Shown piece by piece: positions 3,482 through 61,300 of a stretch of 64,000 bases of DNA. A program made the translations under genes and the position numbers. Below the pieces are notes generated by a model that worked only from the letters and a program-made list of their open reading frames with translations, ran no database searches and had not been told where the DNA came from. The stretch comes from an uncultured virus (IMG/VR IMGVR_UViG_3300025723_000028) (Duplodnaviria; Heunggongvirae; Uroviricota; Caudoviricetes), in IMG/VR virus record IMGVR_UViG_3300025723_000028. The stretch is one strand, 5' to 3'. Positions within the stretch are counted from its first letter, which is position 1. Each line of letters begins with the position of its first letter.

Positions 3482-4141
3482 ATGTTTTGTCAAAATTGTA
3501 ATATAGAGCACACTGGTATATATGGGTCAGGTAGATTTTGTGGCGTTAAATGTGCGAGAGGGTTTTCTACGAAAGCTAAACGAGAGGAAATTAATAAAAA
3601 AGTTTCCGCTAGCCAAACTGGCAGAAAATTATCTGAAGCGCATAAGAAAAATATAGAATCAGGTAACAATTTTAATAGAGTTGAAAAAGTTACAAAAACT
3701 TGTATTGGATGCTCAACAGAAATAATTTGTCGCATTACATCAAAAAAGAAATTTTGTACTGTTAAATGCTGGGCAACTTACACAGAACAATACAAAGAAC
3801 CTTTTTTATTATATAGAAAAAAATCTAATTTTGATTTTAATATAACAGACTACGAAGATAAATTTGATTTAACGTTGGTAGAGCAGTATGGCTGGTATAG
3901 TCCATCTAACAAAGGAAACAATCTAAATGGAGTTTCTAAAGATCATATGCTAAGTGTCAAAGATGGATTCATATTAGGGGTGGACCCTGAAATTATTAAG
4001 CATCCAGCGAATTGCCAACTCATTCTACATAGACAAAATCAAAGTAAAAGAGAAAAAAGTTCAATAACTTTAGAAGAATTAATGGAAAGAATAGACAACT
4101 GGTTGACAATTAACTCATCCGCTACTATAATACTTGTATAG
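3482..4141 (+). CDS. HNH-type homing endonuclease with Zn-finger and NUMOD3-like segments
   Basis: CxxC motifs, GRKLSEAHKK, SKDH...HPANCQLILHRQN; ATG at 3482 follows TAAATA and an RBS. Confidence 0.75.
   Translation: MFCQNCNIEHTGIYGSGRFCGVKCARGFSTKAKREEINKKVSASQTGRKLSEAHKKNIESGNNFNRVEKVTKTCIGCSTEIICRITSKKKFCTVKCWATYTEQYKEPFLLYRKKSNFDFNITDYEDKFDLTLVEQYGWYSPSNKGNNLNGVSKDHMLSVKDGFILGVDPEIIKHPANCQLILHRQNQSKREKSSITLEELMERIDNWLTINSSATIILV
4103..4131 (+). promoter_or_regulatory. consensus sigma70 promoter upstream of the non-coding array
   Basis: TTGACA-17 nt-TATAAT. Confidence 0.85.
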
Positions 4142-4160
4142 TAAATGTTCTTTAACAAAA

Positions 4161-7419: not shown

Positions 7420-7514
7420 AGTAGCGAGCATTGGTATGCGGCTGTGTTTTATAAACACGGGAGACTGGTCAGATGGGCTGGAACGATAGAGTTCGAATCT
7501 CTACGCTACTACCA
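7420..7514 (+). tRNA. atypical tRNA with TAT anticodon (Ile) and long variable arm
   Basis: AGTAGCG/CGCTACT ACCA; TGTGT-TTTATAA-ACACG. Confidence 0.6.
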
Positions 7515-7545: not shown

Positions 7546-7670
7546 AAACAAGTCTTATGTAACATCAATAACAAACAATTAGTGCATACATCCACTTGTT
7601 GGCTCTAAATTCTATATTGCTAAATATTAAAAATACAACGTGTATTATCAAAAATTTACAAGGAATTGGA

Positions 7671-8324
7671 ATGAAAATAATTTCATTGGATTTACAACAT
7701 GACGCTGATGTGGTAAAAGAAGAAATAGCAAATGATCCCAATGAATGGTTTTGGCCTTATTCAGATGAACATCATATATTTGAACAAGCTCACATGAAAT
7801 TTATAAACAGAAATTTAAATTATTTCAACTTTGCTTCAATGGTAGCACAAACTACCGAGCCTGACGATTTCAATCCTAACCTTCAAAAAACACTAAATTT
7901 TTGTAATAAAATTCGAACATTAACTGGAGATAATGGTCCGTTTGGTCGAATGTGTGTATGGGATTTGCCTTCTCAATCACAATTATTACCCCATACAGAT
8001 AGATACTGGTATCATTTTAATATAATTAGAAATATATTTGTAATCAGCGATAATCCTGAAAATAAATTAAAAATCAATATCAATAATGTTCCAGTCATAT
8101 GCAAAAAAGGAACATTATTTCAATTTAATCCTGCTACTGAATTACATGAATTTATCAATCATAGTAATGGGAATTTTTATTTTTTAGGGTTTGACTTTTG
8201 GAAAGTTGAAAATTTGTCAAGACACCTTTCAATTTTAAATATAATGGAAATTATTAATAATCCATCTCGTCTCAATGGGTTTGGAGCAAATGGTACGCCA
8301 TGCAAATATATATCAAAGCATTAG
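7671..8324 (+). CDS. 2OG-Fe(II)/Asp-Asn beta-hydroxylase-like oxygenase
   Basis: LLPHTD...LHEFIN (HxD...H); AGGA RBS before ATG 7671. Confidence 0.6.
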   Translation: MKIISLDLQHDADVVKEEIANDPNEWFWPYSDEHHIFEQAHMKFINRNLNYFNFASMVAQTTEPDDFNPNLQKTLNFCNKIRTLTGDNGPFGRMCVWDLPSQSQLLPHTDRYWYHFNIIRNIFVISDNPENKLKININNVPVICKKGTLFQFNPATELHEFINHSNGNFYFLGFDFWKVENLSRHLSILNIMEIINNPSRLNGFGANGTPCKYISKH

Positions 8325-8477: not shown

Positions 8478-9122
8478 ATGAAAAGAAATACGACTACTTG
8501 TTCAAAATGTAATAGTGAAGTATCATTATCAAACTATACAAAGCATTTTTTAAGTAAAAAATGTTTGTCTGGTGGTAAACAAATTGCTAACTCATCATTA
8601 TCGTGTATTTATTGTAATGCCGTATTCTTACGTTCTTCTGGACGAGGAGTTCACGAAGTTCAATGTGAATTTAATCCGCAAAGAAGAATTCTAAATCTAG
8701 GGAAAGTTGCATGGAATCTTGGTAATAGAAATACACCTGATATGAGAAACCCAGAGTTTATGGGAAAACGGGGTGGATATCGCCCCAACTCCGGAAGAAG
8801 TAAAAAATTTAGAGTATTAGATTCATTCGGAAAAGAAACTGTGTTACAGAGTACTTACGAATTAAGATGTAGTGAAATATTGAAGGAACTTCAAATAAAA
8901 TGGCTTAGACCAAAAGCACTAAAGTATGACAATAGAAACTATTTTGCTGATTTTTATTTACCAGATTATGATATCTGGTTAGATCCTAAAAATAGTTACA
9001 AAGCAAAACAAGACGAAGAGAAAATAGCAAAAGTAATAGAACAAAATAAAATTAAGTTATACATTCTTTTAGACGAACATCTGACTAAAGATTACATTGC
9101 CCGATTAGCTCAGTTGGTTTAG
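8478..9122 (+). CDS. putative homing endonuclease (Zn fingers plus PD-(D/E)XK-like domain)
   Basis: CxxC/H motifs; QSTYE...YFADFYLPDYDIWLDPK; stop codon lies inside the following tRNA. Confidence 0.7.
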   Translation: MKRNTTTCSKCNSEVSLSNYTKHFLSKKCLSGGKQIANSSLSCIYCNAVFLRSSGRGVHEVQCEFNPQRRILNLGKVAWNLGNRNTPDMRNPEFMGKRGGYRPNSGRSKKFRVLDSFGKETVLQSTYELRCSEILKELQIKWLRPKALKYDNRNYFADFYLPDYDIWLDPKNSYKAKQDEEKIAKVIEQNKIKLYILLDEHLTKDYIARLAQLV

Positions 9123-9177
9123 TAGCGCCATCTTGATAAGGTGGAGGTCCCTGGTTCAAGCCCAGGATCGGGTACCA
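9099..9177 (+). tRNA. tRNA-Ile(GAT)
   Basis: CCAT-CTTGATAA-GGTGG region with GAT anticodon; GCCCGAT/ATCGGGT ACCA. Confidence 0.85.
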
Positions 9178-18471: not shown

Positions 18472-19086
18472 ATGATCAACACAAATTACTTAAAAATAGC
18501 AAATGATATTGAGTTTAATAGTTGGAATATTGAAGAAATAGAAAAATCATTTATCGATGTTGCTATACCAAATGAATCGACGGTTTATATACATCCTTCT
18601 GGTATGCCACATTGGCAATTATTTAAAAATACAAACATTGCATTTTCTAGAAACTTTTATTATAATTTTAAAGAACAATGTATAGAAGTTTCTGAAAAAT
18701 TAATAAATTTACAAAAATCTATGCAGTACGAAGATAACGCATTAGTAAAAAAATTTATAAATCATAAAATTACTCCACATAGGGTAGTACTTATGAAAGC
18801 AATAGCAGGATATGATGTATTACCGCATTGTGATGTAACTAGAAATATCAGTATTAATATAGGATTAAAAAATTCCAATATAGGTACTACTTATATTAGT
18901 GAAAATAAAGATTTTACAAATTTTTGGGCATATCCCAATTCGTCATTCACAATGCAAGATGGAGATGTATATTTGTTACAGGTAGAAAATGCGCATACAG
19001 TTACATCTAATGTGCCAAAAAGCGACAATTTAGCTAGATATATTATCAGTTATCATTTGGAGTTTAATTCCTGCCAAAATGCTTGA
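18472..19086 (+). CDS. 2OG-Fe(II) oxygenase-like protein
   Basis: VLPHCD...AHTV...R. Confidence 0.6.
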   Translation: MINTNYLKIANDIEFNSWNIEEIEKSFIDVAIPNESTVYIHPSGMPHWQLFKNTNIAFSRNFYYNFKEQCIEVSEKLINLQKSMQYEDNALVKKFINHKITPHRVVLMKAIAGYDVLPHCDVTRNISINIGLKNSNIGTTYISENKDFTNFWAYPNSSFTMQDGDVYLLQVENAHTVTSNVPKSDNLARYIISYHLEFNSCQNA

Positions 19087-19120
19087 TAATAAGTAATATG
19101 TGTACTATAATAAAGTTTGA

Positions 19121-19463: not shown

Positions 19464-19538
19464 GCGTTTGAAGCTAAACGGACAAGCAAGAGCCTCTAAA
19501 ACTCCGAATAGTGGGTTCAACTCCCACCAAGCGCACCA
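19464..19538 (+). tRNA. tRNA with CTA anticodon (amber suppressor candidate, Arg-like body)
   Basis: GCGTTTG/CAAGCGC ACCA; AGAGC-CTCTAAA-ACTCC; T-arm GTGGG-TTCAACT-CCCAC. Confidence 0.7.
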
Positions 19539-19559
19539 AATTTTTAAAAGGAAAGTAGC

Positions 19560-19916
19560 ATGAAAAAATAGATTGGAAGTTCATCATTAAGACTGTGGAA
19601 GTGGGGCAATGACACTTATCATACTGGATACAGAATATTTACGCTGTGTTTTAGTAAGTTCTTTGATTGTTATATTTTTCACTATAAATTAGGTAGTTAC
19701 ATACCAAAGCACAAAGATCCAAGTGCTGGTCGTAAAATTTATAGATTAAACATAGAATTAGTTAAAGCAAAGAAAGGTGGGCAATTTGTTTGTAATAAAA
19801 TGATATGGTCTTTATGGAATAGAATCTATTTATTTCGTGCAGATGACTCTTATCACTATGTAACTTCGATTGAGCAAGGTTCAAGATGGGTTTTTAGTAT
19901 AGGAGTCAAATTGTAA
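19560..19916 (+). CDS. 2OG-Fe(II) oxygenase with in-frame TAG at codon 4 (not in the ORF track)
   Basis: AAGGA RBS, ATG AAA AAA TAG, then 114 open codons with YIPKHKD...GGQF...YHYVT...SRWVFSIG. Confidence 0.7.
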
Positions 19917-19925
19917 AGTTTTTAT

Positions 19926-20001
19926 CTGGGAGTAGTTCAATTGGTAGAATGCGTGCTTTGGGAGCATGTGGTTGCAGGTTCGAGACCTGTCTCCCAGACC
20001 A
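19926..20001 (+). tRNA. tRNA-Pro(TGG), second copy
   Basis: CGTGC-TTTGGGA-GCATG. Confidence 0.9.
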
Positions 20002-20032: not shown

Positions 20033-20251
20033 ATGCAAGTAAAAACAGCAGCAAGCCTTATCGATGTCAATATTTGTACCGAACAAGTTGGTAATAAACG
20101 CTATGATTTAGTTTTAATCGCCGCTGCCAAAATGCGAGAGATGAGATTTCATCGTACCGGATCAGGCAAGATTACAAGATTATCTGAAGCATTACTGGAA
20201 ATTCAAGAGGGGCGTGTTGACCCTGCTGAATATCTAAGAAAAATAAAATAA
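20033..20251 (+). CDS. RNA polymerase omega-subunit-like protein
   Basis: VGNKRYDLVLIAAAKMRE...ALLEIQEG resembles RpoZ. Confidence 0.7.
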   Translation: MQVKTAASLIDVNICTEQVGNKRYDLVLIAAAKMREMRFHRTGSGKITRLSEALLEIQEGRVDPAEYLRKIK

Positions 20252-24638: not shown

Positions 24639-25835
24639 ATGTACCCAATAGACAACGTAAAAATGTGGTCCGGCGATATGGAAGTCGAACAGGCTGCTAT
24701 GGATCAACTGCGTAATATCAGTGCTTTGCCAATTTTAGCAGGTCATGTGGCAGTTATGCCCGATGTCCATATGGGCAAAGGTGCCACCGTGGGATCAGTT
24801 ATCCCAACCCGCAGTGCAATTATTCCTGCCGCAGTTGGTGTGGATATTGGGTGTGGAATGTGTGCGGCTATGACTAATCTAACCGCATCTGATTTGCCAG
24901 ATAGCCTAGTCAGCTTGCGTAATCAAATTGAACGTGACGTACCTGTGGGGTTTAACGAACACAAGCAGGGTATTCCCAGTGTAACAGGTCCATATGCTGA
25001 TGTATTGCGTAAGAACTTACGCAATACCATGGATCGTTTTGAACATTTAGCCCTAGTGCCACATTTGAACCGTGCTGACTTTAACAAGATTGGACGGCAA
25101 GTTGGTACTCTTGGTGGCGGAAATCACTTTATCGAGCTGTGTTTAGATAGCGAAGATCGAGTGTGGATCATGTTACATAGCGGCAGTCGTGGTATTGGTA
25201 ATCAAATTGGTTCTGTTGCTATCGAATTAGCTAAGGAGCAAGCATTGAAGCGAGATTACAGTCTTGCTGATCGAGACTTGGCTTGGCTTGACGAAGGAAC
25301 CGCAGAGTTTGATGCTTACATTGAAGCTATGTTATGGGCGCAAGATTATGCACGTTTTAACCGTGATACTATGATGAATTTAGTTACCTCACTGATGCTA
25401 CGTCGATTTCCACAAATGAAAATTGTAGGAGAAGTTGTTAATTGTCATCATAACTTTACCTCCATCGAAGAACATTTCGGTGAAAAAATGTGGGTCACAC
25501 GTAAAGGTGCAGTGTCAGCGCAAGCAGGACAAATGGGAATTATTCCTGGATCAATGGGTGCTAAATCATTCATTGTACAAGGAAAAGGCAATGCCGATTC
25601 TTACTGTTCGTGCTCACATGGTGCTGGGCGTAAACACAGCCGTAATGGTGCAAAACGTCTATTTTCATTAGATGATCTAGCATCGCAGACTGCTGGTGTT
25701 GAGTGCCGCAAAGACTCAGGTGTACTGGACGAAATTCCAGGTGCTTATAAGAACATAGACGACGTTATGAGTGCTCAAAGAGACCTTGTTGAGATCGTTC
25801 ATACGCTAAAACAAGTATTATGTGTCAAAGGTTAA
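24639..25835 (+). CDS. rtcB: RNA 2',3'-cyclic phosphate/5'-OH ligase RtcB
   Basis: VMPDVHMGKG, VGVDIGCG, GTLGGGNHFIE, HSGSRG, SHGAGR, DEIPGAYK. Confidence 0.95.
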   Translation: MYPIDNVKMWSGDMEVEQAAMDQLRNISALPILAGHVAVMPDVHMGKGATVGSVIPTRSAIIPAAVGVDIGCGMCAAMTNLTASDLPDSLVSLRNQIERDVPVGFNEHKQGIPSVTGPYADVLRKNLRNTMDRFEHLALVPHLNRADFNKIGRQVGTLGGGNHFIELCLDSEDRVWIMLHSGSRGIGNQIGSVAIELAKEQALKRDYSLADRDLAWLDEGTAEFDAYIEAMLWAQDYARFNRDTMMNLVTSLMLRRFPQMKIVGEVVNCHHNFTSIEEHFGEKMWVTRKGAVSAQAGQMGIIPGSMGAKSFIVQGKGNADSYCSCSHGAGRKHSRNGAKRLFSLDDLASQTAGVECRKDSGVLDEIPGAYKNIDDVMSAQRDLVEIVHTLKQVLCVKG

Positions 25836-26753: not shown

Positions 26754-27359
26754 ATGCCGGCAAGTTTTTTGTATTCAGACCCGCATTTCTCACATGCGGG
26801 AGTTTGTAAATTTCTCAGAGCAGATGGCGTAACTAAGTTACGTCCATTTGATGATATTACTGAGATGGACGAACATTTGATTGAACGGTTTAATGAAACT
26901 GTTCGGCCCAGTGATAAAGTCTATTTCCTCGGTGATGTTGTTATTAACCGTAAGGCCTTGGCAGCAATTATGCCTAGGCTGAACGGCGATAAAGTTCTTA
27001 TTCGTGGCAATCACGATATCTTTAAATTGTCGGATTATACTCCGTACTTTAGAGATATTCGTGCATATCATGTATTCAATGGTATGATTCTTAGCCACAT
27101 TCCGGTCCATGCTGCAAGCATTGGTCGGTTTGGGGTGAACATACACGGCCATTTGCACGAAAAACGTGTGAAGAAACCCACGGGCGTTGATGCATGGACT
27201 GGCGAAATTATCTATGGCGATGAAATTGATCCTCGCTACCACTGCGTTTGCGTAGAAGCCACAGACTTTGCTCCAATACTCTTTGAAGACGTTATCAAAC
27301 GGATTGAAGCAGAGGGAGGCACAGTGGGCTTCCGTAATGGAAACGGTCCTACTATGTAA
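26754..27359 (+). CDS. calcineurin-like metallophosphoesterase
   Basis: SDPHF, LGDV, RGNHD, HGHLH. Confidence 0.9.
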
Positions 27360-28160: not shown

Positions 28161-28781
28161 ATGATTATAAACTGTGGGCCCGACTTTGATCAACGTACTT
28201 TATCACTGATACTTCCAGAAAAAAGAAGTGTCATAGCAGTTCTTATTAGTGGCGGAATCGACAGTGCTATACTATATTATTTGCTGTTGACTGAAAATAA
28301 TAATACAGGAAACAAGCATAACATATTACCCATATCCATAATGAGATCAGAAGGATCTGAATATTTTAGTAAATTAGTAGTGGCGAATATGAATGAAAAA
28401 TTTGATTTGCCTAAACATGATGCTATTATAGTCGGCGATCCATTATTGCCTGATAATGAACAGGTTAAGTCAGGTGTGCTAGAAGCTTTTAATATAGGAT
28501 TTAATATGGTGTACTGCGGTATTATTGATCAACACCCAGATCATATGGTTGGATGGACTCCGGCTGCTATAACAGAAAGTCACAAATTTAAAATCCCATT
28601 AAAAAATCTTAATAAATCACACATAATAGATCTTGTAATTAAATGCAATCAACAGGATTTATTTTATATTACGCATACTTGTGTTAAATTTAAAATTGGC
28701 AGATGCCATGCGTGTAATGGGTGTAATGAGAGAGCGTGGGGATTTGAGAAATTGGGATTGGTTGATCCTGGTAACATATAA
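28161..28781 (+). CDS. QueC-like PP-loop ATPase
   Basis: ISGGIDSA; THTC...CHACNGCNER zinc motif. Confidence 0.7.
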   Translation: MIINCGPDFDQRTLSLILPEKRSVIAVLISGGIDSAILYYLLLTENNNTGNKHNILPISIMRSEGSEYFSKLVVANMNEKFDLPKHDAIIVGDPLLPDNEQVKSGVLEAFNIGFNMVYCGIIDQHPDHMVGWTPAAITESHKFKIPLKNLNKSHIIDLVIKCNQQDLFYITHTCVKFKIGRCHACNGCNERAWGFEKLGLVDPGNI

Positions 28782-49332: not shown

Positions 49333-52300
49333 TTAATTAACTCCCCTTAAAAAGAGCGCCGATGAAGTTGTAGTATCTTGCAATGGGGTGCCATTCGATG
49401 CTGTTTGTGGGCTCGTACCTTGAGCATACCATGTTACGCCACGACGTACTAAAATAGTTACTTCTTCTCCGACAGCTGGGGCAGTTATAAATGTCACTGA
49501 AACTGGTGTTTCATTAGTTATAGTGTACCCAGTGGTTTGCAATATACCACCGAGATATACTTCTACTTGTCTATTTAAAGATTGCCAATAAGTTGTATTA
49601 GTAATAGCAGTATTATTAGGAACCGTAATAATCGCACGGTAGTAAAATCCATTATCAACTACTACTGTGCCTTCTGTATAACTATTTGCTGCTACCCATG
49701 TGATTGCATCGGTAAATGCTAATGAAATATCTACTGCTTCAAATACTGTAGTTACTCCATTTCCTATCATTCTATCACTAACGATATAGTTTTGAGATGC
49801 AGCAGGCAGTAAATTGCTTCTACCCATGTCATAAACAGTCGACCCTATTGTATGCGATGCCGCTGCGGTGCCAGCTGTGCCACGTAATAAACTACTGACC
49901 GTATTAGCTACCATATCAATTTCACGATACATAATGCGTTCGCCATTTATAGTTATAATTCCCCATGTATTGGTAGAAAAATTAGGAATTGTTAATGCAC
50001 TAGCATTAGCTACATGTATAATATCATCAGTTTGTGCTAAATTTTGAGTCAATAATGTAGTAGAGTCTATGGTCATACGATAAGTTGCTTGAACCCCGCG
50101 CATATCCTGGAATATTCTAAATTCCATAGCTTCAGGTACCACTGAACAAGTAACATTCGTCACTACCACAACATCAGTTGTCTGTATTGTGCCACTATTT
50201 AAACTCAATACATTTCCATTAATTGTATAATCAATATTTGGAGATAATACTTTTCCATTTTTAGAAACCCATGGGCGTGAAATATCTGTATAAGATTGAT
50301 ATAATACAAAATTATTGATGTAAATTGTTTCTCCTACGGTAGCATCAAATTCACCTGGTAATGATGATGCAGCGCCAGGCGGATTATCGAAGTCTGTTGT
50401 ATCAAACGCTTCATAAACTGATATTCCTTCACTATCTGGCCCGACAAAAATTTGCGTTGACAGTCTTTGTTCTCGTGTATCATTAAATGATGTAATCGAA
50501 ATAATTTGACCAACTTGCGGAACGAGTCCTTTGCCTGTTATAAAGGTTAAAGTATGTGCTATAGGATCAATTATATACTGCGCTGTCGCATTTACTGCAA
50601 TATAAATTTGTGCATTATCTGCAGGTGTGTTAGTCAGTATTACAAATACAGTATCAATATTTGGATCAAACGGTACAGTTGAATAATAATCTGCTTTCAT
50701 ATTTCCACTAAATCCAGTATATATCGATATGTCATATAATGCAGGATCTAATAATATACCGTCAACATAAACACTTACCATAGATTTAGTTATTGCTGCT
50801 GAATTGATTCCTATTCTCGATGGTAATGGGAATCCAGTATTTCCATTTTGTACTATGTAGCTGGCCCCAGCAGAACCTTGTGCAACAACCCCGCCCACTG
50901 TTACAATTGCAACCACTGGATTAGTATATTCTAAACTAAATGCTGGATCCAGATCAAATACAGTTTGTCCTGGTGTTGCTACACTAAAACTCTGAGTCAC
51001 AGGTAAACTCCAACTGTAATTTGTAGTTACATTTTGAATTGTAGTAGGTTGAATTACTACTAAACTTATAAAATCAGTTGAATTATATACATTAGTAAAT
51101 GTTACTTGTGTCGAGGACAATGAATAAGGAGCGTAGGAATAATTTGAATTAGCCAAATATACGCCATTAACAAAAATAACAAATTCTTGTATTGCTGGTG
51201 TAATACCATCATTTTGGTAGTATGCTACAGGAACTATCAATGAATTTCCTACTTGACTGCCATTATAAGTATTTTTATATACTTGATTGCCGCCACCCAA
51301 TTCATACACATAAATTGCAATTTGATCACCTTGTGCAACCAAAATAGATGTATTTAAAATTGTAACTGTTTGGACAGTCCAATCTATTGTATAATCAACT
51401 CCTAGAGTTAAATCATACCCTTGAGTTACATCAGTAACTTCCACGATAAATGGATATGGTAATGCACCTGCAAAACTAATAGTTGCATTGCTGCTTTCAT
51501 AAATGAATTGTATTACTGCTTGCGGAAAGCTGTGTCCTAACCCTTGCCAATCAGCCCCAGGAGTCGTATAAACTCGCATGTCTAATGTATCAAATTCAAT
51601 TCCTGGCACTAATTCTTCTGGTGCATGACTTTCGTATACATCTACATACTTACCACCATCGATATTGATATCAGTAGGGCGTGTTCCAAGGTACGGATCT
51701 AAATAACTGCTTGCAAAAATTGTGTCCAATACCCCTATGTCATATGTTGGTAATCCATTTGCATCATAAGATATGTTATCAAAAGGATTAATATCAAAAT
51801 TATCTCGGGCATATCCAGTGTCTTGGCTGAAATTTAATCCAGAAACTTGTACTCCAGGATAGTCAACACCATCTATAAGCAATGGTAAAGATAATCCAGG
51901 AGAATTTACGGTGCTGACATAATAGCCCATAGTACGGTTAACACCGCTTAATTCACTGGCTGAAACCATTGTCCATTGCGACGGGTCAAATACTGAATTA
52001 GATTCCGTATTATTAGAGCTCCAAACTATATTGTCGTATCGTACCTGAGTCCCAGTTTCATAAGTTATATTTGATTCCCAGTCAACGATTGTTGATTCAT
52101 ATTCATAGCGATCATATTTTAATGTAAGATTAAATGTACGAGATAATGTATGTCCAGACGGATTGCCCATTATTACACTGGCCTGAGCTGGTTGACCAAC
52201 AAACAATAATGATGCTGTACCGTTAATTTGATCGTTGTGTCCAATTGGAGCAACATTTCCTAATATTCCTGCTTCGGCAACTTCAAATATATTGCCGTTC

Positions 52301-55300
52301 GGAGCAATAATATAACTATTCGAAACTACTGCCAACCCTGCACTCCATTCAATAGTAACTCCAGGTAATCCACCACCTGTGATATTTATAAATGCATCTG
52401 TAATATAGCCACTACCTGGATTAGTTATTGTAATCGAAATAATATTTCCAGTCGTATTAATTATACTGGTTCCAGTAGCAGGGTATCCAGCATACATTAA
52501 CGTAGCACTACCATCAATCGCTGAACCAGACATGAATGTAGGAGGAGTAGACCCTGATGTACCCGGAACTGTAATGGTATATAAGTTATTTGCATAATAT
52601 ACTTGTTGTCCAATACTATAAGCGGTGTTTGGATACCACATCGTACCGAATGTTATAATAGGAGCATTTCTATATCCTGTTCCTGCATTAGTAATATTGA
52701 CACCTTGCACGTTCAACAGATAATTATTAAACCATTGACTATATAAACTTGGATATTGCCAAATTTGTGCATTAGGCGCAGTATTGCTTACTAAAGAATT
52801 ATGAGGGGTTATAGCTTGATTGTACGGAGTCAATATAGGGCTTACAAATTGTGGACTTTTCAGCAATGAATTCCAATATGCAGGTAAGTCAAAATCAGTT
52901 AAATCTCCTAAGAAATTATCCTCTCCGCTATAAGTTAAATTAAACTGTCGCACCTGAACATGATAAGGTTTAACTTCTTGGAAATAATTTACTACAAAAT
53001 CTTGATTATCTGAAAGATAAGTTTGATAAGGTAATAATGAACGAATCTTATGATTGACATCGACATAACTTGTTTTAATTAACCAAGATGGATCAGTAAA
53101 CTCACTGTATACAAAATTAAACATTAATATTAAACTACTATTACGTTCAATTAGTAAATCTTCAATATAGATTTCCTCATTCAACGCACGTATAATATAA
53201 CGGGTTTCAATCTGTGCAGTTTCATCAAAATATTGTGAATCATAAGTTTGTGCATCAAACCCAAAATCAGCAACTGCGTAATTCCATAATTCTTCTTTAA
53301 AGGCTATAGTGCCATCTTCTAACCCGACACGTTGCCAGTCACTGACAGGATTAACACCTGTACGTAAATAAATTTCCCATTTGCCCGAACCATTAGAAAT
53401 AACACGCACAGACGACCCTACTGGTGCTGTTGTATAACTTAATGTTGCCAATTGCCCATAATTTTGAACCGCAGCAACTGGTGCAATAGTCGAATTATAT
53501 CCTGGTAAATACCAATTGACATAATACCAATATAATGGAGTATCATAACTTTGTACTTGTGTTAACAACAATGTTCGAGTAGCACTAACCGTATAAATTG
53601 TCCATCGGCCGTTTTCGGTACTATCATTTAATACAAGATACTTGTATCCAACTGGAACTACATACAGATCTTGATAGCCTAAAACTTCTAAGTTAGGTAC
53701 TTCAAAATTCCATGCTCCAGATCCAGCAGAAGGAATCGGATCTGCTGCATTCAATAAATTAAAACTACGTGTTTCGGAAATAGGATACTGCAATAAAACT
53801 GAATTTGCTCTACCTAAATAATTTTCTAATGCAGTAAATCTATCTGCAAACATTGACTGTCTGGGACGGAACTGTACACCAAAACGCATACCTGGACTTA
53901 AAGTTGGATCTGGTACTGCATTACCTGCTGTATCAATACCACATAAACTATCTATAAACTTTCGATATAACTGAGTATTAAGGAATGATTTTGCAATGCC
54001 ATCTGTAACTATTTGATATTCTTGATGTACTACAGAATCTGTTAATTTTCTTGAAAAACTAACATTCAATATAGTATTAGTAGCATTTAACAAACGCTGT
54101 GCATTATAAATCGCAATCGTTGATGCATTTAATCCAGCAATGAAAGGTAATCCACTGCTACGAGGATCAAAAATATAGCTGGCAACTCCTGCTGCACTTA
54201 ATGTTTTTCCGGAACCTGAAGCAATTGTTGTAATTCCCTTGACCCAAAAATAATAAATTGTTGTAAAAATATTATTTGATCCCAATGATGTTGCTACACA
54301 ATAACTAGTAGGACTCAATGGTGTGCCTGATCCAGTGTAGTTAGATGGTGGGGTAGTACTTGATATCCATTGGTAAACATCAATACTACTGCCTGGGAAA
54401 GTCGTACCCCAACGACGACTAGCATATACTATGTCATCTTGACTAGGATCGATGAATCTTACTGTATCAGTATCCCACCACATTTCACCGATGTGTTCTG
54501 CGCCCCAGAATTGACCATTATTATGAACTGTACCCTGATTATATTGTGCTGGGTCAACTGATCCAATATAATCAATGTTACTACGAGCAATTCCAAGTAT
54601 TTTACCTTGTAATGGATCAAAGAAGTCGAAGTATGTTTGATACGCACCATTTAACGTATCGTTAACTCCAATAGCTTGTCCACCATTGTAACTAAACACT
54701 CCATCGATCGCATGTACATCTACAACTGGTTGTTGTACACGTATAGGCGCCCATGCAGGAGTATTGTTTGGATTATTAAAAATTACTATATATCCATTAC
54801 CATTAGTAGAAGTATTTGTTCCGCCTGGAGCGCCTACCATTAATCTACCATTTGTATAATTTACTGCGGTGCCAAAGAAATTACCAGATTCAATGACATT
54901 ATTGTAAATTTGTTGCCCAAATGCAAATTGTCCAGGATTTTTGATATTATTTGTACTACTTGGGAAGAAATCATATGTATATGCCACCCCTCCGTTGTTA
55001 ATCGGATTATAAAAAGTGGTACTATTTTCATCAAAGTAAGTTTGATTAGCATCAAAAGTTGTTGGCTCGTAAACGTTTCCATTTGGTGCACCAACAATTA
55101 AATTAACTGCGCTAGAATCAATACTTAGACTTGCACCAAATTGAGCATTGAATGCTGGAGATGGGCTTAAAATTTGCTGAGTAAAGACTAAAGTATCAAA
55201 TCCCAATTGACCAAATACCGATGTTACTGTCCCAGGAAGTACTGTAATTAAATTGTTTGGTGTTCCTGCTTTGGAGTTTTTAATAGATAATGTTAATCTT

Positions 55301-58300
55301 CCAGAAACAACAATTATTTTTACACCAGGTAAAGGTGCAAATACAAAATTAATAGTTTCCGCAGAAGGATCATAGGAGTAATCTATCCCAGCAATTTGCA
55401 ACACATTATTCAAATAGACAACAGTAGTATATGAACTAGCAACCGTATATAAAGATCCAATATAAAAAACTTTAGTTGTACTATCGCCTGTAAATGTTAA
55501 ATCTGGAGTAGTTGATGCTATTACATTCGGTATAGCCATTTCATTGATTGCTTTCGCAAAACCTGCTACTGTATTGTTAGGTTGCGCTGGCACAGTTACT
55601 ATTGAATTATTAATACGCAATGTACCAGAAGGAGTTAGAACAGGATTAGCTATTGTAGATGTGGTAACCCCGTATACCCTCGATTGATTAACTTGGTGAT
55701 CAACTGACCCAGCTAAATCAATATAAGTGCTATCGTATGGTGCACCGATATAAAGACTGCAATTCAATGGACATGAATCAAGTACTAGCCCGTATTCTGC
55801 TGATTTTACTGGTGTGCTACTTGATAATTCTTGAATTTGTGTAATTTGATTAGTACCAATTTCAATTATATCTCCGTAATTAAACGTTATATTAGAAAAT
55901 ATGATATTATTTCCGCTTATACTATATTGTCCTTCGATTGACTGGCTAGTAGTTAATAAAAATGTTTCGTTGACGCTTACTGTCACAGGATTTGTAACAT
56001 TACCAGGTATTGTATATGTTAGTTGAGAAGGATTCGAAACTATATAACGAATTACGCTTCTGTCAAACATATACACTACCCCGGAATTATTTAAATTATC
56101 ACGTGTAGTATTAGGTGCTCCTACGTATATTTGTGCTCCATCCGTTGTTGTTGCAACTGATGATCCGAAATTATCTCCGGATATCGAATCTGTAGACGTA
56201 ATAGTAGTAACATATTGCCAATATGTCGGTGTTGTTACTATAATATCTGCTCCAACTGGCGGAATAGTAATAAATGTCAACTCAGTAGTTTCATTATTAA
56301 ATGTATAATCAAAATAGGGACGTTGTATTACTTTATTTACAGTCACTGCAAAAGTTTCGATAGTGGTTGCATTATACAAATATGTGTTTAATGCAAAGGT
56401 ATTAGTTTGATTTATACCAATACCAGTATACGTATACCCGCTTATTGCACCGCCTACTGCAATTCCAGTAACAGTTATTGTTAAATCATTGGCAGTAGTA
56501 GTTCCTCCTAATCTTGATCCAGAAATAACTAACGTATCATTAATAGCATAAGACTGTCCGCCAGTTATTAGATTTATTACATATTCGCCGCGTACATTTT
56601 GAATTGTAAAAATTGAATTATATCCAGCGCCTGAGGTTGAACTTTGTCTCAGATTGTAATAAGTCGTAGCATCTAATTGTTTACTCAAATTGCGAGTCAA
56701 CGTAAGTGTTTGTCCTGACACTGTTGGGTGAACTAATGTTACAAAATTTTGATCTACAGTATAATCTTTTCCGTAAACTAACTCAATTCCACTTAATGCA
56801 ACTGATAATTGTTCAGGATGCAAGTAATTAATCTGTATTGCGTTTGAATATTCGTAACTAGTTACACTATAGTTTGTAGTATATGTAATAGTTTGATTTA
56901 CTACATCTATTTTTTCATAGGCATAAACTGAATTAGCTGCCGGTGCTCCGATATACATCCATTTTTCGTCTGCACTAATTACTCCCGATGTTCCAAATTT
57001 AATAGGATTAAAATTTTGTGTCGGCGGAACTAATAATTGAGTAATAGTGAAGGAATTTACATCTGAATTTCTATAAATTACTACAGCATAGCCCATGTTT
57101 GATGCACTGGTATTAGCTCCTGCTATAGCCCAATTAGAACTACCAAAGGATACCATATTACCAAAATTACTTGAATCAATAGTTTCCAGTATTAATGTGC
57201 TGTTAAATTGATAGTCAGTAAAATTTCCTCTAATATAAGTCAGTATAGAATTGGCTCCAGGTGCACCTACCATAGCGCCAAAGTTAGATGCTGATTGTGT
57301 TATACTTACACCATATCGATCACTAGGAGTAAATCCCGTGGAAATAACAGAATCGGTAATAAATGGAGTTTGTTTTTGTACAGTTTCCCAATGTCCACTG
57401 CCGTTATTATCTATCCAAGCAATCGAACCCGGTACTAAATTATTAACATAAGGTAAGTTTGAAATGTCACTAGCTTGTGATACTCGAGCACTTTGTAAAT
57501 GAAAGACTAACCCAGTACCTGTTATATTAGTTACATTTGTGTTTACGAAACTAAAGGCGATAATAACGGTAGTTGGAGTTGGTGCTGCTAAAACACGATA
57601 AACCCCGTTAACCCCATTATTAAAATATTTAATAATAATTAAATCATATAATGATAACCCATGTGCCGCGTTAAATTGTACAACACTAGTACCATTGAGA
57701 TTATCAGTTAACCGTATCATTTGCCCTGGCACACTGGCTACACGATATACACCCCAGTCATGCGTGTTGGTTTTAGCAATCCAGATATAAGTGCCAATTC
57801 CAATATTGTTGATATCAGCTTCAATTGCCGCAGGATCTTCAATACTGAATACCGTAACATCAACATCATCTAAACATACATAACCTGCAGACGGTAATGC
57901 ATCTGGCAAACTACCTGATTCATATATAGTAGGAAGAATGTTAATATTATTAATAGAATAACTTTCTTTCCATAAATTGCTCAAATAAACCTGCTGATTA
58001 GCTTGACTTACATCGCCTGGGTTTGTAATTTGTATAGTTGACGGATTGTAAGATAATAGAGCTTCGTTTAATTGAATTTCAAAGTAACTCTTATTAGCAT
58101 TTGCCCCGTACACTCCGGATAATATGCCCCAGTTTTCATAGATATTATAATCGCCGCTTTCTTTGCCGTTAAGTTTTGCTAAGTTGAATATTTCAGCAGC
58201 TTGTAATGTACCTTTGGTACCAATAAATTGTTGATATAACTGAACTTGTGTTACACCATTAAGATTCATGTCTGTCATATATGGACGAGGACGGAATCCA

Positions 58301-61300
58301 ATCAATCCAAATGCAAATAAATCGTTATCACTGGTTAAATTAGCTTGGTATACATCGTATGAGCTTACTAATTGATCTGCTTTATTAGCCAAGTTAGGCA
58401 ATAATCCAGTGTCAATTGCTTGATAATCACTTTTTATCCACTCACTATAATTAAAGGTTTCTTGTGGCTCACTAATAACCAATGCTTGCCAGTAGGTATT
58501 TTTGTATAATACCATATCTCCCTTGGTATATTTTTGATAAGATTGCCATTGCTTTACATTGTTTAAGTTAAGAATAAATCCTTGTGCATTTAATTGCCCA
58601 TCCCATTCAGTTGTCGTAGATGCGATTAAACTTAAACGAACTTGTCTTGCGGCTGTAATTGGATCATATATCAAATCTCTAAATTGTGTAGTATTATCTA
58701 GCACAATCATATCTTCGTAATTTGTGAATTTCAATGTAAGATAATTGATAGTTTGTCCGTTTGTAGATGTAATCGAAAATTGATTACCATCACGATTAAC
58801 TATCATTGAGCTAACATCCAACACAGTACGATTTTGATCCAGTAACATATTTTCCGGAGTTATGCTGGCAATAGTATCTACAATACTGATAGGTTGACTT
58901 GCTTTAATTGTAGTGGCAGCTGGATTTAGATTAATCATTGTACCTGCTTGCCACCCTTGTTCTCCAAAGTATAAAAACTCTTGAGACATCTGTAACCAAT
59001 TTAATGTGTACCCATTGTATGTATTATCAAATATTAATCCTTGAGATGTTAGCCATGCTCCATAACTCATTAAGAAATCGCAGACACTAGATGGACTGGT
59101 AAAAACATATCCATACGGAATTTGTTTTATATTATTTGTATATTGTGATGGAACTTGAACTGTGGTATTACCAGCGGTAATAGTCTGGTATAACCCTACT
59201 GGACTACTTTCTAATATTTCAAAATAAGGTTGTACATTGCTATAACCATAAACACTATATCCTATTCCACCTGAGCCTAAACGTTCTACTTGTACAATAA
59301 CAGAACTATATGTAATTTGATCAAATGGTTGATTTTTATAAAAAATCAAACTATAACTGCTTGGGGGAATTTGTAAACTATTATTCGTAGAACTTGGTCC
59401 GGCTCTTTCAGTAGATATTTGAACATACGCAGAATCACTGAATGAAGCCATACGGTAGCATAGACGCACATCTAAGTTTGCTAATTCGTTAGTCAATGCC
59501 GTAGTACTATTAACTCCTGTTTGTTGATTATAGTCAACAATCCAATTGATATAACTTGCTTTGCTTACACCATTACCATATACTTGTACACCTGAAGCAT
59601 TTAAACGGTAGCGACTATTTAACAAGTATTGACCTAGTGCATTATTGTATCGATATAAATCTCTATCAGCAAATAATGAGAAAAATTGTGCTGGTTTTGT
59701 CAGTGCTAATAATCGCATAATAGCAAATGGATACGAACTACTATTCCACCAAGATGCCTGAACTGGACCACCGTCACCAGATACCCATGATTGTTGGAAC
59801 CCATACGGATCATTACGACCCATTACGCATTCAGACGGAGGCAGAAGATAACCTTCTGAACTAGCAGGAATAATTTTTGATAAACCAGGTCTTATATATT
59901 CAGGAAGAACATATGGACCAACAGGATCTGCAACAATACCAGCTTCTAAATCATCCCAAAGTACTGTATTTCCTGATGTATATGGACCTGGACCATAACG
60001 TGTCGCCCACCATGCAGGTTCTTCAGAAAATCCAACCATTTCCCAAGGTGTAGTATTTGGGGTTTCAGTATCATAAAAATAACGATATATGCCTCTCCAG
60101 TTACCCTGTAAGAATTGTGTTTGGTCGATACGATTAGCGGCTTGGCTATAGTTATAAGTAAACGGATTGTCTGTAATATAATTTTGTTGAGTATAATCTA
60201 CACGATTTTGCCCAACCCATGTTAAGAAATCCTCGCTCATTATTTGATTCACTTCCGAATATGTGTAAGGCGTTTTTCGAAAGAATCCAGGTAATAAAGC
60301 AGTAGTTTGCGCTGGGTAAAAAGTAGGATCTACTTGATCTGATGTCAATGGAATTGGATTATCATCGACTTTAATGTTATCATAAATTCGCTTTTCAAAT
60401 TCAAGTAATACTTGATCTCGAATATCACCAAAAGCAATAGTAGTTGATCCGTCGTGTCCTTGAATTACTACAGTAGGCTCTGAGTACGTATCGTCAATAT
60501 AAATTGACGGAGTAAATTTAGGATATAACCCCATTTTACTAGGTGTATTTGGACACCAGCTGGCCACAGTAGTTGGATATTCGTTAATAGTAACCACATC
60601 GCCAACATGTAGTGGTACTAAAATTGTTAATTTCTGTGCATCAACTGACACAGTATATTGACTATTGCGCAATAATAATATATCATTGACATATACCAAT
60701 AACCCAAGATAATTACTTGACGTAAAGTTATACATTTGACTTGTGTTAAAAGTCGCTGATGTAATTGGATTAACTACCGTTGTCGTCGATGTATAATTTG
60801 TGCCAATCGGAAGCATATCTGACCAATAAAACGAATTTGACTTTGTCAAACTTTTTGTTATATTACTGATTCCCAGATCAAGTACTTGCGATACCGTTTC
60901 ATTTCCAGTAAGATTTAATTGTGTTACTGCGGTTAGCAATTTATTTTTATACTTGATGTATTCTCTGCTGTTATAATCTAAAGCAGCAAATAAATCGTAA
61001 TTAATGTTACGTAGGAAAAATCCAGCTAATGTTAATGGCGAAGATTGTTGTAATATTAACTGACCATAAGGAATAATATTTCCCAAATCTCGTGTATTAT
61101 TACGTCCATTTATTGGCCCAGCTAGATTAACTAAATTTTCACAAATAGTAGTATAATGTTGTCGAACTGTACCAAGACTAAATTTTGCACTATTACCATT
61201 AAACGGATTATTTTCTAAATTAATAGGAATTTGATAAAATGCAGTAGCACTCACTTGCTGACTATATGCCAATATTTCAACTATGTCACCAATAACCATA

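What the first reader, a model, noticed from the sequence alone, without database searches (positions are those of the whole stretch)
19464..19916. Amber-suppressor tRNA directly followed by a gene that needs amber read-through
Seen: the tRNA anticodon loop reads CT-CTA-AA (U33, A37). 21 nt after its CCA, behind an AAGGA RBS, comes ATG AAA AAA TAG and then 114 uninterrupted codons with a full 2OG-Fe(II) oxygenase signature (HKD...H...R). No other ATG/GTG/TTG occurs before the HxD motif. Long genes here have no internal TAG, so the genome is not globally recoded. Inference: a two-part switch in which the enzyme is made only when the co-transcribed suppressor is mature and charged. Several tRNA-locus ORFs also end in TAG (4141, 8324, 9122, 22262).
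Basis: partly seen in the sequence, partly recalled or inferred. Interest (0 to 1): 0.85.

Follow-up and report, generated by a model that had tools for sequence, protein, structure and literature searches.

The report
Suppressor tRNA gating one phage gene
A phage that otherwise uses the normal genetic code keeps a UAG stop as the fourth codon of one small oxygenase gene, right next to its own UAG-reading tRNA. Every relative examined in this gene's branch does the same, so the enzyme is very probably made only when that tRNA overrides the stop.

Summary
Window 19464-19538 is a tRNA with anticodon CUA (Rfam tRNA 46.4 bits). Twenty-one nt later come AAGGA, ATG AAA AAA TAG and 114 open codons. 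These encode a minimal double-stranded beta-helix protein with an invariant HxD...H...R set.

The TAG is not an error. In 26 of 26 distinct loci of this protein clade the first in-frame stop upstream of the conserved ORF is TAG, never TAA or TGA. It sits 1-7 codons after a Shine-Dalgarno-led ATG. The codons after it are conserved as amino acids with free synonymous change.

A CUA tRNA lies within about 120 nt in 20 of the 26 loci and elsewhere on the contig in 3. The other 3 are short contigs. The tRNA sits upstream in some loci and downstream in others. It comes as a cloverleaf or as a 65-67-nt form without a D stem.

Eight more distant homologues have ordinary starts and no CUA tRNA nearby. 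The window has no second gene of this kind, so the code is not globally reassigned.

Best reading (0.8): programmed amber read-through by a dedicated, linked suppressor tRNA. Why the gate exists is unknown, and nothing has been tested at the bench. This scan noted the same module before on other DNA (e1-5749954, e1-5943236). Six full-text searches found no paper describing it.

The parts
19083..19111 (+). sigma-70-like promoter match (TTGATA-17-TATAAT) upstream of the tRNA-Met / ORF / tRNA(CUA) / oxygenase / tRNA-Pro run
   Evidence: 11 of 12 matches. No terminator-like site on the + strand from here to 21200. This is a consensus match only, and the total number of matches in the region is no higher than in shuffles.
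19464..19538 (+). amber-suppressor tRNA, anticodon CUA (C34 at 19496), discriminator A, encoded CCA; anticodon stem has only 3 standard pairs (27.43 A.C, 31.39 C.A)
   Evidence: 46.4 bits; ARAGORN at -ps85; acceptor 7/7, T stem 5/5
19548..19552 (+). Shine-Dalgarno AAGGA, 7 nt before the leader ATG
   Evidence: The loci whose upstream sequence was inspected show a purine-rich GGA/GAG motif a few nt before the leader ATG; this was judged by eye, not counted.
19560..19568 (+). three-codon leader ATG AAA AAA (M-K-K)
   Evidence: Leaders of 1-7 codons in the relatives.
19569..19571 (+). conserved in-frame amber codon TAG, followed by A (TAGA)
   Evidence: TAG in 26 of 26 distinct loci; the next base is A in 22, G in 3 and C in 1.
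19572..19916 (+). 114 codons plus TAA: small double-stranded beta-helix (cupin) protein of PHROG 13746 with invariant H47, D49, H95, R105
   Evidence: E 2e-32; pLDDT 89
19926..20001 (+). tRNA-Pro(UGG), 9 nt after the gene's stop; shows the gene is embedded in a tRNA operon
24639..25835 (+). RtcB-type tRNA/RNA ligase gene, context only (5 kb downstream in the same tRNA region)
   Evidence: phrog_1075, E 1.6e-144

Best explanation
This is a dedicated amber-suppression module. The phage tRNA operon yields a CUA-anticodon tRNA and, 21 nt later, an mRNA. On that mRNA, ribosomes start at a Shine-Dalgarno-led ATG and meet UAG at codon 4. If RF1 wins, a tripeptide is released and no enzyme is made. 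If the charged CUA tRNA wins, translation continues through 114 codons to give a small Fe(II)/2-oxoglutarate-type oxygenase. The enzyme is therefore produced only in proportion to the amount of mature, charged suppressor. In circuit terms this is an AND gate fed by one promoter (a coherent feed-forward loop), which would delay and sharpen synthesis. Shown by sequence comparison: the parts, their conservation, their linkage and the coding of the post-TAG segment. Inferred: co-transcription, charging (most likely Lys or Gln, by anticodon-driven recognition), real suppression, and the purpose of the gate.
For: 1. The tRNA is under selection as an RNA. In 22 CUA tRNAs next to homologues, the acceptor stems pair at 152 of 154 positions with 4-7 pair types per position. 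T stems pair at 109 of 110 positions. The loop is always Y/C-U/C-CUA-A-A/C.
2. TAG is retained in 26 of 26 distinct loci, with protein identity down to 45-46%. These proteins form one clade with 100/99 support, although a single base change would free the gene from the stop.
3. The 9 codons before the invariant W-G, which lie between the TAG and any start codon, keep their amino acids while codons vary (for example Leu as TTA/CTT/CTA/TTG/CTG). Pairwise there are 788 synonymous and 945 non-synonymous codon differences.
4. In the window the first ATG/GTG/TTG is codon 77, after the HxD ligands.
5. A CUA tRNA lies within about 120 nt in 20 of 26 loci, at 0.7 kb, 1.9 kb and 62 kb in 3, and is unseen only on 3 short contigs. 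Its side (upstream or downstream) and its architecture change across the tree while the pairing persists.
6. Eight homologues outside the clade have ordinary ATG/GTG starts and no CUA tRNA within 1.5 kb. Five of their complete genomes show 0 CUA among 42 ARAGORN-called tRNAs.
7. The base after TAG is A in 22 of 26 loci. From memory, this context favours amber suppression in E. coli.
8. An unpaired 27-43 raises UAG read-through by CUA tRNAs (PMC13092985, passages read).
Against: ARAGORN at default settings misses the window's tRNA, and the XaC1 copy scores only 19.3 bits on Rfam's tRNA model. Many partner tRNAs lack a D stem, and whether bacterial EF-Tu and ribosomes use such RNAs is unknown. 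Twelve of 24 loci have ATT directly after the TAG, and ATT is a rare bacterial start codon. Six of the 24 loci have an ATG a few codons after the TAG. The TAG clade has one origin, so 26 of 26 counts retention, not independent gains. Three loci show no CUA tRNA on the DNA available.
Confidence: 0.8

Rival explanations
1. The ATG-(0-6 codons)-TAG is a mini-ORF. Ribosomes terminate there and re-initiate, or initiate directly, at a non-canonical codon just after it (ATT in the window). The CUA tRNA neighbour is then incidental to life inside a tRNA cluster.
For: ATT follows the TAG in 12 of 24 loci, and six of the 24 loci have an ATG 3-7 codons after the TAG. The gene always sits among tRNA genes.
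Against: The other 12 loci have ACN, AAN, GTN, GCA or CTA after the TAG, so no start-like codon is conserved. The Shine-Dalgarno motif is spaced for the leader ATG, not for the codon after the TAG. The upstream stop is always TAG and never TAA or TGA (26 of 26), which re-initiation does not require. Among tens of tRNAs per cluster, the immediate neighbour is the CUA one in 20 of 26 loci, on either side of the gene.
Confidence: 0.07
2. The tRNA-like RNA is not a decoder. It would be a processing or stability element (an RNase P/Z entry site) for the adjoining mRNA. The TAG would then be leaky through host near-cognate tRNAs and serve simply as a strong attenuator.
For: Fifteen of the 22 RNAs lack a D stem, by length (65-67 nt). 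Two of them (L015, L016) have an atypical T loop (ATCGTGT). In 4 loci the downstream tRNA overlaps the gene's last codons or stop codon.
Against: An invariant CUA at the anticodon position with U33 (C33 in one), A37 and A/C38 in 22 of 22 has no reason in a pure processing signal. An encoded CCA is present in 18 of 22, and the discriminator is A in 17 of 22. Canonical cloverleaf versions replace the D-less form in several branches.
Confidence: 0.06
3. UAG here encodes a non-standard residue (pyrrolysine-like or new) delivered by a dedicated tRNA.
For: ARAGORN labels these tRNAs 'Pyl', but it does so purely from the CUA anticodon. The tRNA shapes are unusual.
Against: No aminoacyl-tRNA synthetase or Pyl-biosynthesis domain appeared among the window ORFs scanned (27 against PHROGs, 26 against Pfam). 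Acceptor stems are unrelated between loci, so no shared synthetase identity set exists outside the anticodon loop. The UAG lies in a variable leader where the residue's identity is unlikely to matter.
Confidence: 0.03
4. A private nonsense mutation or a sequencing error has made a pseudogene.
For: None beyond the bare presence of a stop codon.
Against: The same TAG is present in 26 of 26 distinct loci, including three isolate genomes (XaC1, nt-1, CZ01) and a bacterial chromosome. The ORF behind it is intact with invariant catalytic residues.
Confidence: 0.01

Closest known systems
Phage-encoded suppressor tRNAs of TAG-recoded phages (crAss-like, Lak and phAss-1; 'code 15')
   Same: A phage-borne CUA tRNA lets ribosomes read in-frame TAG codons in phage genes. 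For PMC10607447, PMC7886860 and PMC12386605 I saw only search listings and abstract starts.
   Different: In those phages tens to hundreds of TAGs are spread over many, mostly late, genes. Here there is exactly one client gene, with one TAG at codon 2-8, physically joined to its tRNA. TAG still serves as an ordinary stop elsewhere (8 of 72 rough gene calls in the window).
Synthetic suppressor-tRNA AND gates (amber codons in a regulator plus an inducible suppressor tRNA)
   Same: The logic is the same: output needs both the mRNA and the suppressor tRNA. For PMC11669171 I saw the title and abstract start in the listing. The 2007 supD/T7 polymerase gate is recalled from memory.
   Different: Those gates are engineered, and two different promoters feed the two inputs. 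Here the gate is natural, conserved across a deep clade, and both inputs appear to come from one operon.
Pyrrolysine system (pylT tRNA-CUA with in-frame UAG in methylamine methyltransferase genes)
   Same: A CUA tRNA is genetically linked to a few client genes with a conserved in-frame UAG, in an organism that still uses UAG as a stop (recalled).
   Different: No pylS or pylBCD-like genes were found in the window. The UAG sits in a variable N-terminal leader, not at a catalytic position.
tRNAs with shortened (4-bp) anticodon stems that promote stop-codon reading (PMC13092985, passages read)
   Same: The top pair of the anticodon stem (27-43) is unpaired in the window tRNA and in 12 of the 22 relatives.
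   Different: Here the anticodon is fully cognate to UAG. In addition, the loop-closing pair 31.39 is C.A or A.C in 14 of 22, a feature not discussed in the passages I read.
D-arm-lacking mitochondrial tRNAs (for example animal mt-tRNA-Ser(AGY); recalled)
   Same: They share the acceptor stem, a single-stranded linker in place of the D arm, an extended anticodon helix and a normal T arm.
   Different: Here they occur in phages of bacteria, carry a stop-codon anticodon, and alternate with canonical cloverleaf versions in sister lineages.

Membership tests
tRNA (Rfam RF00005) | Covariance-model score at or above the gathering score (29 bits) | tested here: met
   46.4 bits, E 2.1e-08, full model 1-71
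tRNA (Rfam RF00005) | 7-bp acceptor stem, 5-bp T stem with a T-loop, discriminator plus CCA | tested here: met
   acceptor 7/7, T stem 5/5, loop TTCAACT, discriminator A, CCA encoded
tRNA (Rfam RF00005) | Called by a standard tRNA finder at default settings | tested here: not met
   ARAGORN lists 27 tRNAs but not this one. It is called as tRNA(cta) only at -ps85. tRNAscan-SE was not available.
Amber suppressor tRNA | Anticodon CUA in a 7-nt loop with U33 and a purine at position 37 | tested here: met
   C32 U33 C34 U35 A36 A37 A38
Amber suppressor tRNA | Aminoacylated and able to suppress UAG in vivo | not testable with these tools
2OG-Fe(II) oxygenase superfamily | Double-stranded beta-helix fold | tested here: met
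   (pLDDT 89, all-beta). Foldseek matches to cupins and to 2OG oxygenases such as 6n1f, 4iw3 and AspH. VIA Z about 10 to small cupins and to PolD 9blq.
2OG-Fe(II) oxygenase superfamily | HxD/E...H metal triad and a basic residue for 2-oxoglutarate | tested here: met
   H47, D49, H95, R105 and S109 invariant in 11 of 11. The role of R105 is inferred.
2OG-Fe(II) oxygenase superfamily | Pfam model match above the curated cut-off | tested here: inconclusive
   Window protein: PF13661 at 14.9 bits against a cut-off of 27. Six of 11 relatives match PF13640, best E 4.1e-07.
PHROG 13746 (unknown function) | Profile match over most of the length | tested here: met
   E 2e-32, residues 12-117 on profile positions 9-118 of 125
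Stop-codon-recoded (code 15) phage | Many genes interrupted by in-frame TAG; TAG not used as a stop in the recoded block | tested here: not met
   only TAG 19569 precedes a long ORF that lacks a nearby start; 8 of 72 rough gene calls end in TAG.
Pyrrolysine system | pylS / pylBCD genes accompanying the CUA tRNA | tested here: not met
   no synthetase or Pyl-biosynthesis domain in the window ORFs scanned (27 against PHROGs, 26 against Pfam). The rest of the genome is not held.

The most novel reading that the evidence does not exclude
The tRNA and the oxygenase are more than lock and key: they may form a feedback circuit on translation itself. The enzyme, a minimal relative of hydroxylases that in other systems modify EF-Tu, ribosomal proteins, release factor or tRNA bases, would act on the suppressor tRNA, RF1 or the ribosome. 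It would thereby set the efficiency of the very read-through that produces it. The recurrent C.A/A.C 31.39 mismatch and the D-stem-less tRNA body would be adaptations that confine suppression to this one UAG-A context. This would be a natural, portable, single-codon orthogonal translation device carried by phages.
Probability: 0.15. Interest if true: 0.95.

Novelty: new variant of a known kind. Interest (0 to 1): 0.8.

Why it matters
Suppressor tRNAs in phages are so far discussed as tools for genome-wide or late-gene code switching, or as curiosities. This module would be a natural one-gene, one-tRNA translational gate, kept by selection across a deep clade of large phages and one bacterial chromosome.

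It would show four things:
- Stop-codon suppression is used as a gene-specific regulatory device in a standard-code genome.
- Automatic annotation systematically truncates or misses this gene family. In the nt-1 and CZ01 records it starts at an internal TTG, and in XaC1 at an internal ATG.
- 65-67-nt tRNAs without a D stem may work in bacterial translation.
- A compact natural amber-suppression part exists whose context rules (UAG-A, early position, 31.39 C.A) could inform genetic-code engineering.

It also points to an unknown substrate for a very small oxygenase tied to phage tRNA clusters and RtcB-type RNA repair genes.

Tried and rejected
- **Near-identical DNA in 50,697 phage records:** none found.
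- **Whole genome of the window:** not held.
- **Sequence profile against PDB chains:** nothing meaningful, best E 0.09 to an unrelated receptor.
- **Closest paralogue of the window's CUA tRNA among its 27 other tRNAs:** none is close. The best are the two Arg tRNAs at about 49 of 75 identities, so amino-acid identity could not be inferred. The same held for the canonical CUA tRNA of the 344-kb relative.
- **Arg(UCU) register for the anticodon loop:** rejected, because the covariance alignment puts CUA at positions 34-36.
- **Back-up stops after TAG-terminated genes:** 3 of 8 against 7 of 64 for TAA/TGA. The sample is too small to count as evidence.
- **MAFFT alignment of the D-less tRNAs:** it put the acceptor 5' strands out of register. 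Pair counts were therefore made by script on structure-parsed sequences. No covariance model was built.
- **Further client genes:** none with a short ATG leader, a TAG and a long start-less ORF in the +/-2 kb flanks of 25 loci or in the window.
- **Literature:** six full-text searches found no description of a single amber-gated gene linked to a phage suppressor tRNA. In the XaC1 genome paper the word 'suppressor' occurs 0 times. Its supplementary tables were not opened.

Full report
**1. What is in the window**

Positions 19464-19535 match Rfam's tRNA model over its full length (46.4 bits against a gathering score of 29). CCA follows at 19536-19538. The alignment puts C-U-CUA-A-A in the anticodon loop. 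It marks non-standard pairs at 27.43 (A.C) and 31.39 (C.A), leaving three standard pairs in the anticodon stem.

ARAGORN at default thresholds lists 27 other tRNAs in the window but not this one. At 85% thresholds it calls it tRNA(cta).

AAGGA lies at 19548-19552, ATG at 19560 and TAG at 19569-19571. Then 114 codons run to TAA at 19914-19916. The first ATG/GTG/TTG after the TAG is codon 77, beyond the H47-K-D49 motif.

The surroundings are a phage tRNA region:
- tRNA-Met, a 72-codon ORF, the CUA tRNA, this gene, tRNA-Pro 9 nt later, another small ORF, then tRNA-Gln, all on the + strand.
- A promoter-like match at 19083-19111, with no terminator-like site on the + strand up to 21200.
- An RtcB-type RNA ligase at 24639-25835, plus HNH endonucleases, a metallophosphoesterase and ThyX.

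No whole genome is held, and no phage record shares near-identical DNA.

**2. The protein**

It matches PHROG 13746, a family of unknown function (E 2e-32). Pfam matches of the window protein are below cut-off. However, 6 of 11 relatives match PF13640 (2OG-FeII_Oxy_3), with best E 4.1e-07.

The AlphaFold2 model, built on an 11-row alignment, has pLDDT 89 and pTM 0.80 and is all-beta. Foldseek and VIA-align place it among small cupins and 2OG oxygenases, with TM about 0.55 and Z about 10. Hits include a P4H-EF-Tu complex entry, AspH and PolD, and none stands out.

H47, D49, H95, R105 and S109 are invariant. This supports 'small Fe(II)/2OG-type oxygenase'. The substrate is unknown.

**3. The TAG is a conserved feature of a whole clade**

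I collected relatives from several sources:
- tblastn against phage records: 23 records.
- Two scans of viral contigs.
- One scan of metagenome contigs.
- One scan of species-representative bacterial genomes.

For 28 rows with a visible 5' end I walked upstream in frame to the first stop. One row is Ralstonia phage RP31, which has a plain ATG start. The other 27 rows comprise 25 distinct loci and two near-duplicates. All 27 have TAG as that stop, never TAA or TGA. The TAG comes 1-7 codons after an ATG preceded by a purine-rich motif (judged by eye).

Examples:
- XaC1: ATG AAA TAG.
- Vibrio phage nt-1: ATG TAG.
- Others: M-K-#, M-T-#, M-K-Q-#, M-H-K-S-V-#.

Two copies in the chromosome of Allohahella sp. 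A8 show ATG AAA AAG TAG in GC-rich codon usage, which makes 26 distinct loci. Phage CZ01 repeats the nt-1 layout. One locus (L013/L025) has ATG TAG and then appears to lose one base in a G run.

The public annotations of nt-1 and CZ01 start the gene at an internal TTG, and that of XaC1 at an internal ATG.

**4. The stretch after the TAG is translated**

In 24 loci the nine codons ending at the invariant W-G read roughly (P/S/A)-(T/S)-L-(R/K)-L-(W/F)-(K/R)-W-G. Many synonymous codons are used: Leu by five codons at one column, 11 distinct codons at the mainly R/K column. Pairwise there are 788 synonymous and 945 non-synonymous codon differences. That is the signature of protein coding, in a segment which in most loci has no canonical start codon before it.

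The codon right after the TAG is ATT in 12 of 24 loci but ACN, AAN, GTN, GCA or CTA in the rest. Direct initiation there therefore cannot be the general rule. The base after TAG is A in 22 of 26 loci.

**5. The partner tRNA**

A CUA-anticodon tRNA or tRNA-like RNA lies within about 120 nt of the gene in 20 of the 26 loci:
- Upstream, as in the window, in 14 loci.
- Immediately downstream in 6 loci. In 4 of these it overlaps the gene's last codons or its stop codon.

In three more loci it lies farther away on the same contig: 0.7 kb, 1.9 kb, and 62 kb in a complete 344-kb genome. The three loci without one are contigs of which only 2-2.8 kb could be seen.

Parsed by structure, the 22 RNAs show the following:
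- Acceptor stems pair at 152 of 154 positions, using 4-7 different pair types per position.
- T stems pair at 109 of 110 positions.
- The loop is CTCTAAA in 15, TTCTAAA in 4, TTCTAAC in 2 and CCCTAAA in 1.
- The discriminator is A in 17.

These are RNAs under structural selection whose only shared sequence is the anticodon loop and the T loop.

Two body plans occur. Seven are 72-73-nt cloverleaves, the window's among them. Fifteen are 65-67 nt long and lack a D stem. For most of the fifteen, the minimum-free-energy fold has a 7-9-nt linker (often AUAGGU), a 9-10-bp anticodon helix with a small bulge, and a normal T arm.

The 31.39 position is C.A in 11 and A.C in 3 of the 22, and never any other mismatch. 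Passages of PMC13092985 report that an unpaired 27-43 raises UAG read-through by CUA tRNAs.

**6. Controls**

- Eight more distant homologues (RP31, FLC9, SJSY21, Vp_R1, RVTF4, D6, Lu11, Phabio) start with ordinary ATG or GTG. Their upstream in-frame stops are mixed (TAA 5, TAG 2, TGA 1). They have no CUA tRNA within 1.5 kb and do not sit in tRNA clusters.
- In five of their complete genomes, ARAGORN finds 0 CUA among 42 distinct tRNAs at the Rfam-tRNA hits. The caveats are that D-less forms score low on that model and that 10 of 40 hits received no locus of their own.
- On a maximum-likelihood tree the TAG-bearing proteins form one clade (100/99 support, 25 rows). Within it, the tRNA's side and body plan change patchily. 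So the TAG arose once and was kept, while the partner tRNA was moved or replaced several times.
- In the window, no other TAG precedes a long ORF that lacks a nearby start. In a rough set of 72 gene calls, stops are TAA 39, TGA 25 and TAG 8. The genome therefore uses the standard code.
- No further client of this kind occurs in the +/-2 kb flanks of 25 loci.

**7. How it most likely works**

Shown by comparison: the gene needs UAG read-through to make a protein that contains its metal ligands. A CUA tRNA travels with it. Selection keeps both.

Inferred: ribosomes start at the leader ATG. At UAG, RF1 competes with the charged CUA tRNA. Release yields a peptide of one to seven residues. Suppression yields the enzyme, so output scales with the amount of mature, charged suppressor.

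If, as appears here, both parts come from one promoter, this is a feed-forward AND gate. Such a gate would delay and sharpen enzyme synthesis as stable tRNA accumulates.

Because acceptor stems are unrelated between loci, charging must rest on the anticodon loop and the discriminator. From memory of the E. coli amber-suppressor literature, that predicts Lys or Gln. This was not tested.

Where the tRNA lies downstream and overlaps the stop codon, RNase P cleavage would remove the stop from the mRNA. Each transcript could then give either an intact mRNA or a tRNA (inference).

The reason for gating is open. One hint is that two of the distant homologues sit beside RtcB or RNA-ligase genes, and the window has RtcB 5 kb away. 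This points to tRNA maintenance or translation as the field of action.

**8. Rivals**

- Re-initiation after a mini-ORF: 0.07.
- A non-decoding processing element combined with a leaky UAG: 0.06.
- A non-standard amino acid: 0.03.
- A pseudogene or sequencing error: 0.01.

The evidence for and against each is given in its own section.

**9. Comparison with what is known, and novelty**

The closest known kind is the suppressor tRNA of TAG-recoded phages. In those phages many genes carry TAGs. Here one gene carries one TAG, joined to its tRNA, in a standard-code genome.

The logic is that of engineered suppressor-tRNA AND gates. The genetics recall pylT with its client genes, but no pylS-like gene was found in the window.

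Six full-text searches and the XaC1 genome paper (passages only, supplements not opened) gave no description of this module.

Earlier notes of this same scan describe it on other genomes (e1-5749954, e1-5943236). I re-derived the counts independently here. New in this report are the two tRNA body plans, the 31.39 C.A pattern, the upstream/downstream permutation, the single-origin tree and the Allohahella copies.

I rate it a new variant of a known kind, with interest 0.8.

Noticed in passing
L002 1313-1389 and 1396-1472 (Vibrio phage nt-1); similar RNAs in the 344-kb record G001 (loci L062 and L070): tRNAs with Leu-type anticodons (UAA, CAA) but a short variable arm and an odd D region (AAUUGGCAGA). 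ARAGORN labels their relatives in G001 inconsistently as Ser, Pyl and so on. They look like an unusual tRNA family shared by distant large phages.
   Followed up: no
22 CUA tRNAs parsed (window 19494/19502 and relatives): The loop-closing position 31.39 is C.A in 11 and A.C in 3 of the 22, and never any other mismatch. This suggests selection for a C-A wobble rather than decay. No explanation.
   Followed up: partly
L036 2345-2413, L037 2333-2401, L025 2314-2381, L026 2317-2385: When the CUA tRNA lies downstream, its 5' end overlaps the gene's last codons or its stop codon. In L036 the gene's TAA overlaps the tRNA's anticodon loop. RNase P cleavage would leave an mRNA without a stop.
   Followed up: no
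window 18472-19086 (+) and 7596-8324 (+): There are two more possible beta-helix hydroxylases in the tRNA region. The 204-aa ORF has a PHCD...H...R-like pattern but no family match. The 242-aa ORF weakly matches Asp_Arg_Hydrox (E 6.7e-04) and ends in TAG.
   Followed up: no
window 24639-25835, 26754-27359, 28161-28781 (+): An RtcB-type RNA ligase (E 1.6e-144), a metallophosphoesterase and a QueC-like fragment lie within the tRNA region. Together they suggest a tRNA repair and modification toolkit.
   Followed up: no
window 49333-63999 (-): A giant ORF of at least 4,888 codons runs off the window's end. It was not analysed.
   Followed up: no
window 7420-7514 (+): ARAGORN calls a 95-nt 'tRNA-Ile(tat)' with the anticodon at position 31. 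Its size and layout are unusual.
   Followed up: no
window 4139-4144, 9120-9125, 27352-27354 region: Three of 8 TAG-terminated ORFs are followed at once by a second stop codon, against 7 of 64 TAA/TGA-terminated ORFs. This may be a back-up against read-through, but the sample is too small to tell.
   Followed up: partly
window 20033-20251 (+): A 72-aa ORF between tRNA-Pro and tRNA-Gln weakly matches RNA polymerase Rpb6/omega (E 8.5e-04, below cut-off).
   Followed up: no
L112 and L113 (Allohahella sp. A8 chromosome, about 52 kb apart): Two copies of the complete module (D-less CUA tRNA plus ATG AAA AAG TAG gene) lie in a bacterial chromosome. The two 4.3-kb loci are not identical. This could be a prophage, a repeat of an integrated large phage, or an assembly of phage DNA into the chromosome.
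   Followed up: no
L013/L025 around 1460-1500 / 1960-2000: This locus starts with ATG TAG like nt-1. The frame then shifts by one base in a run of G before the conserved G-N-D, so a second in-frame TAG appears. This is either a sequencing error or a real frameshift.
   Followed up: no
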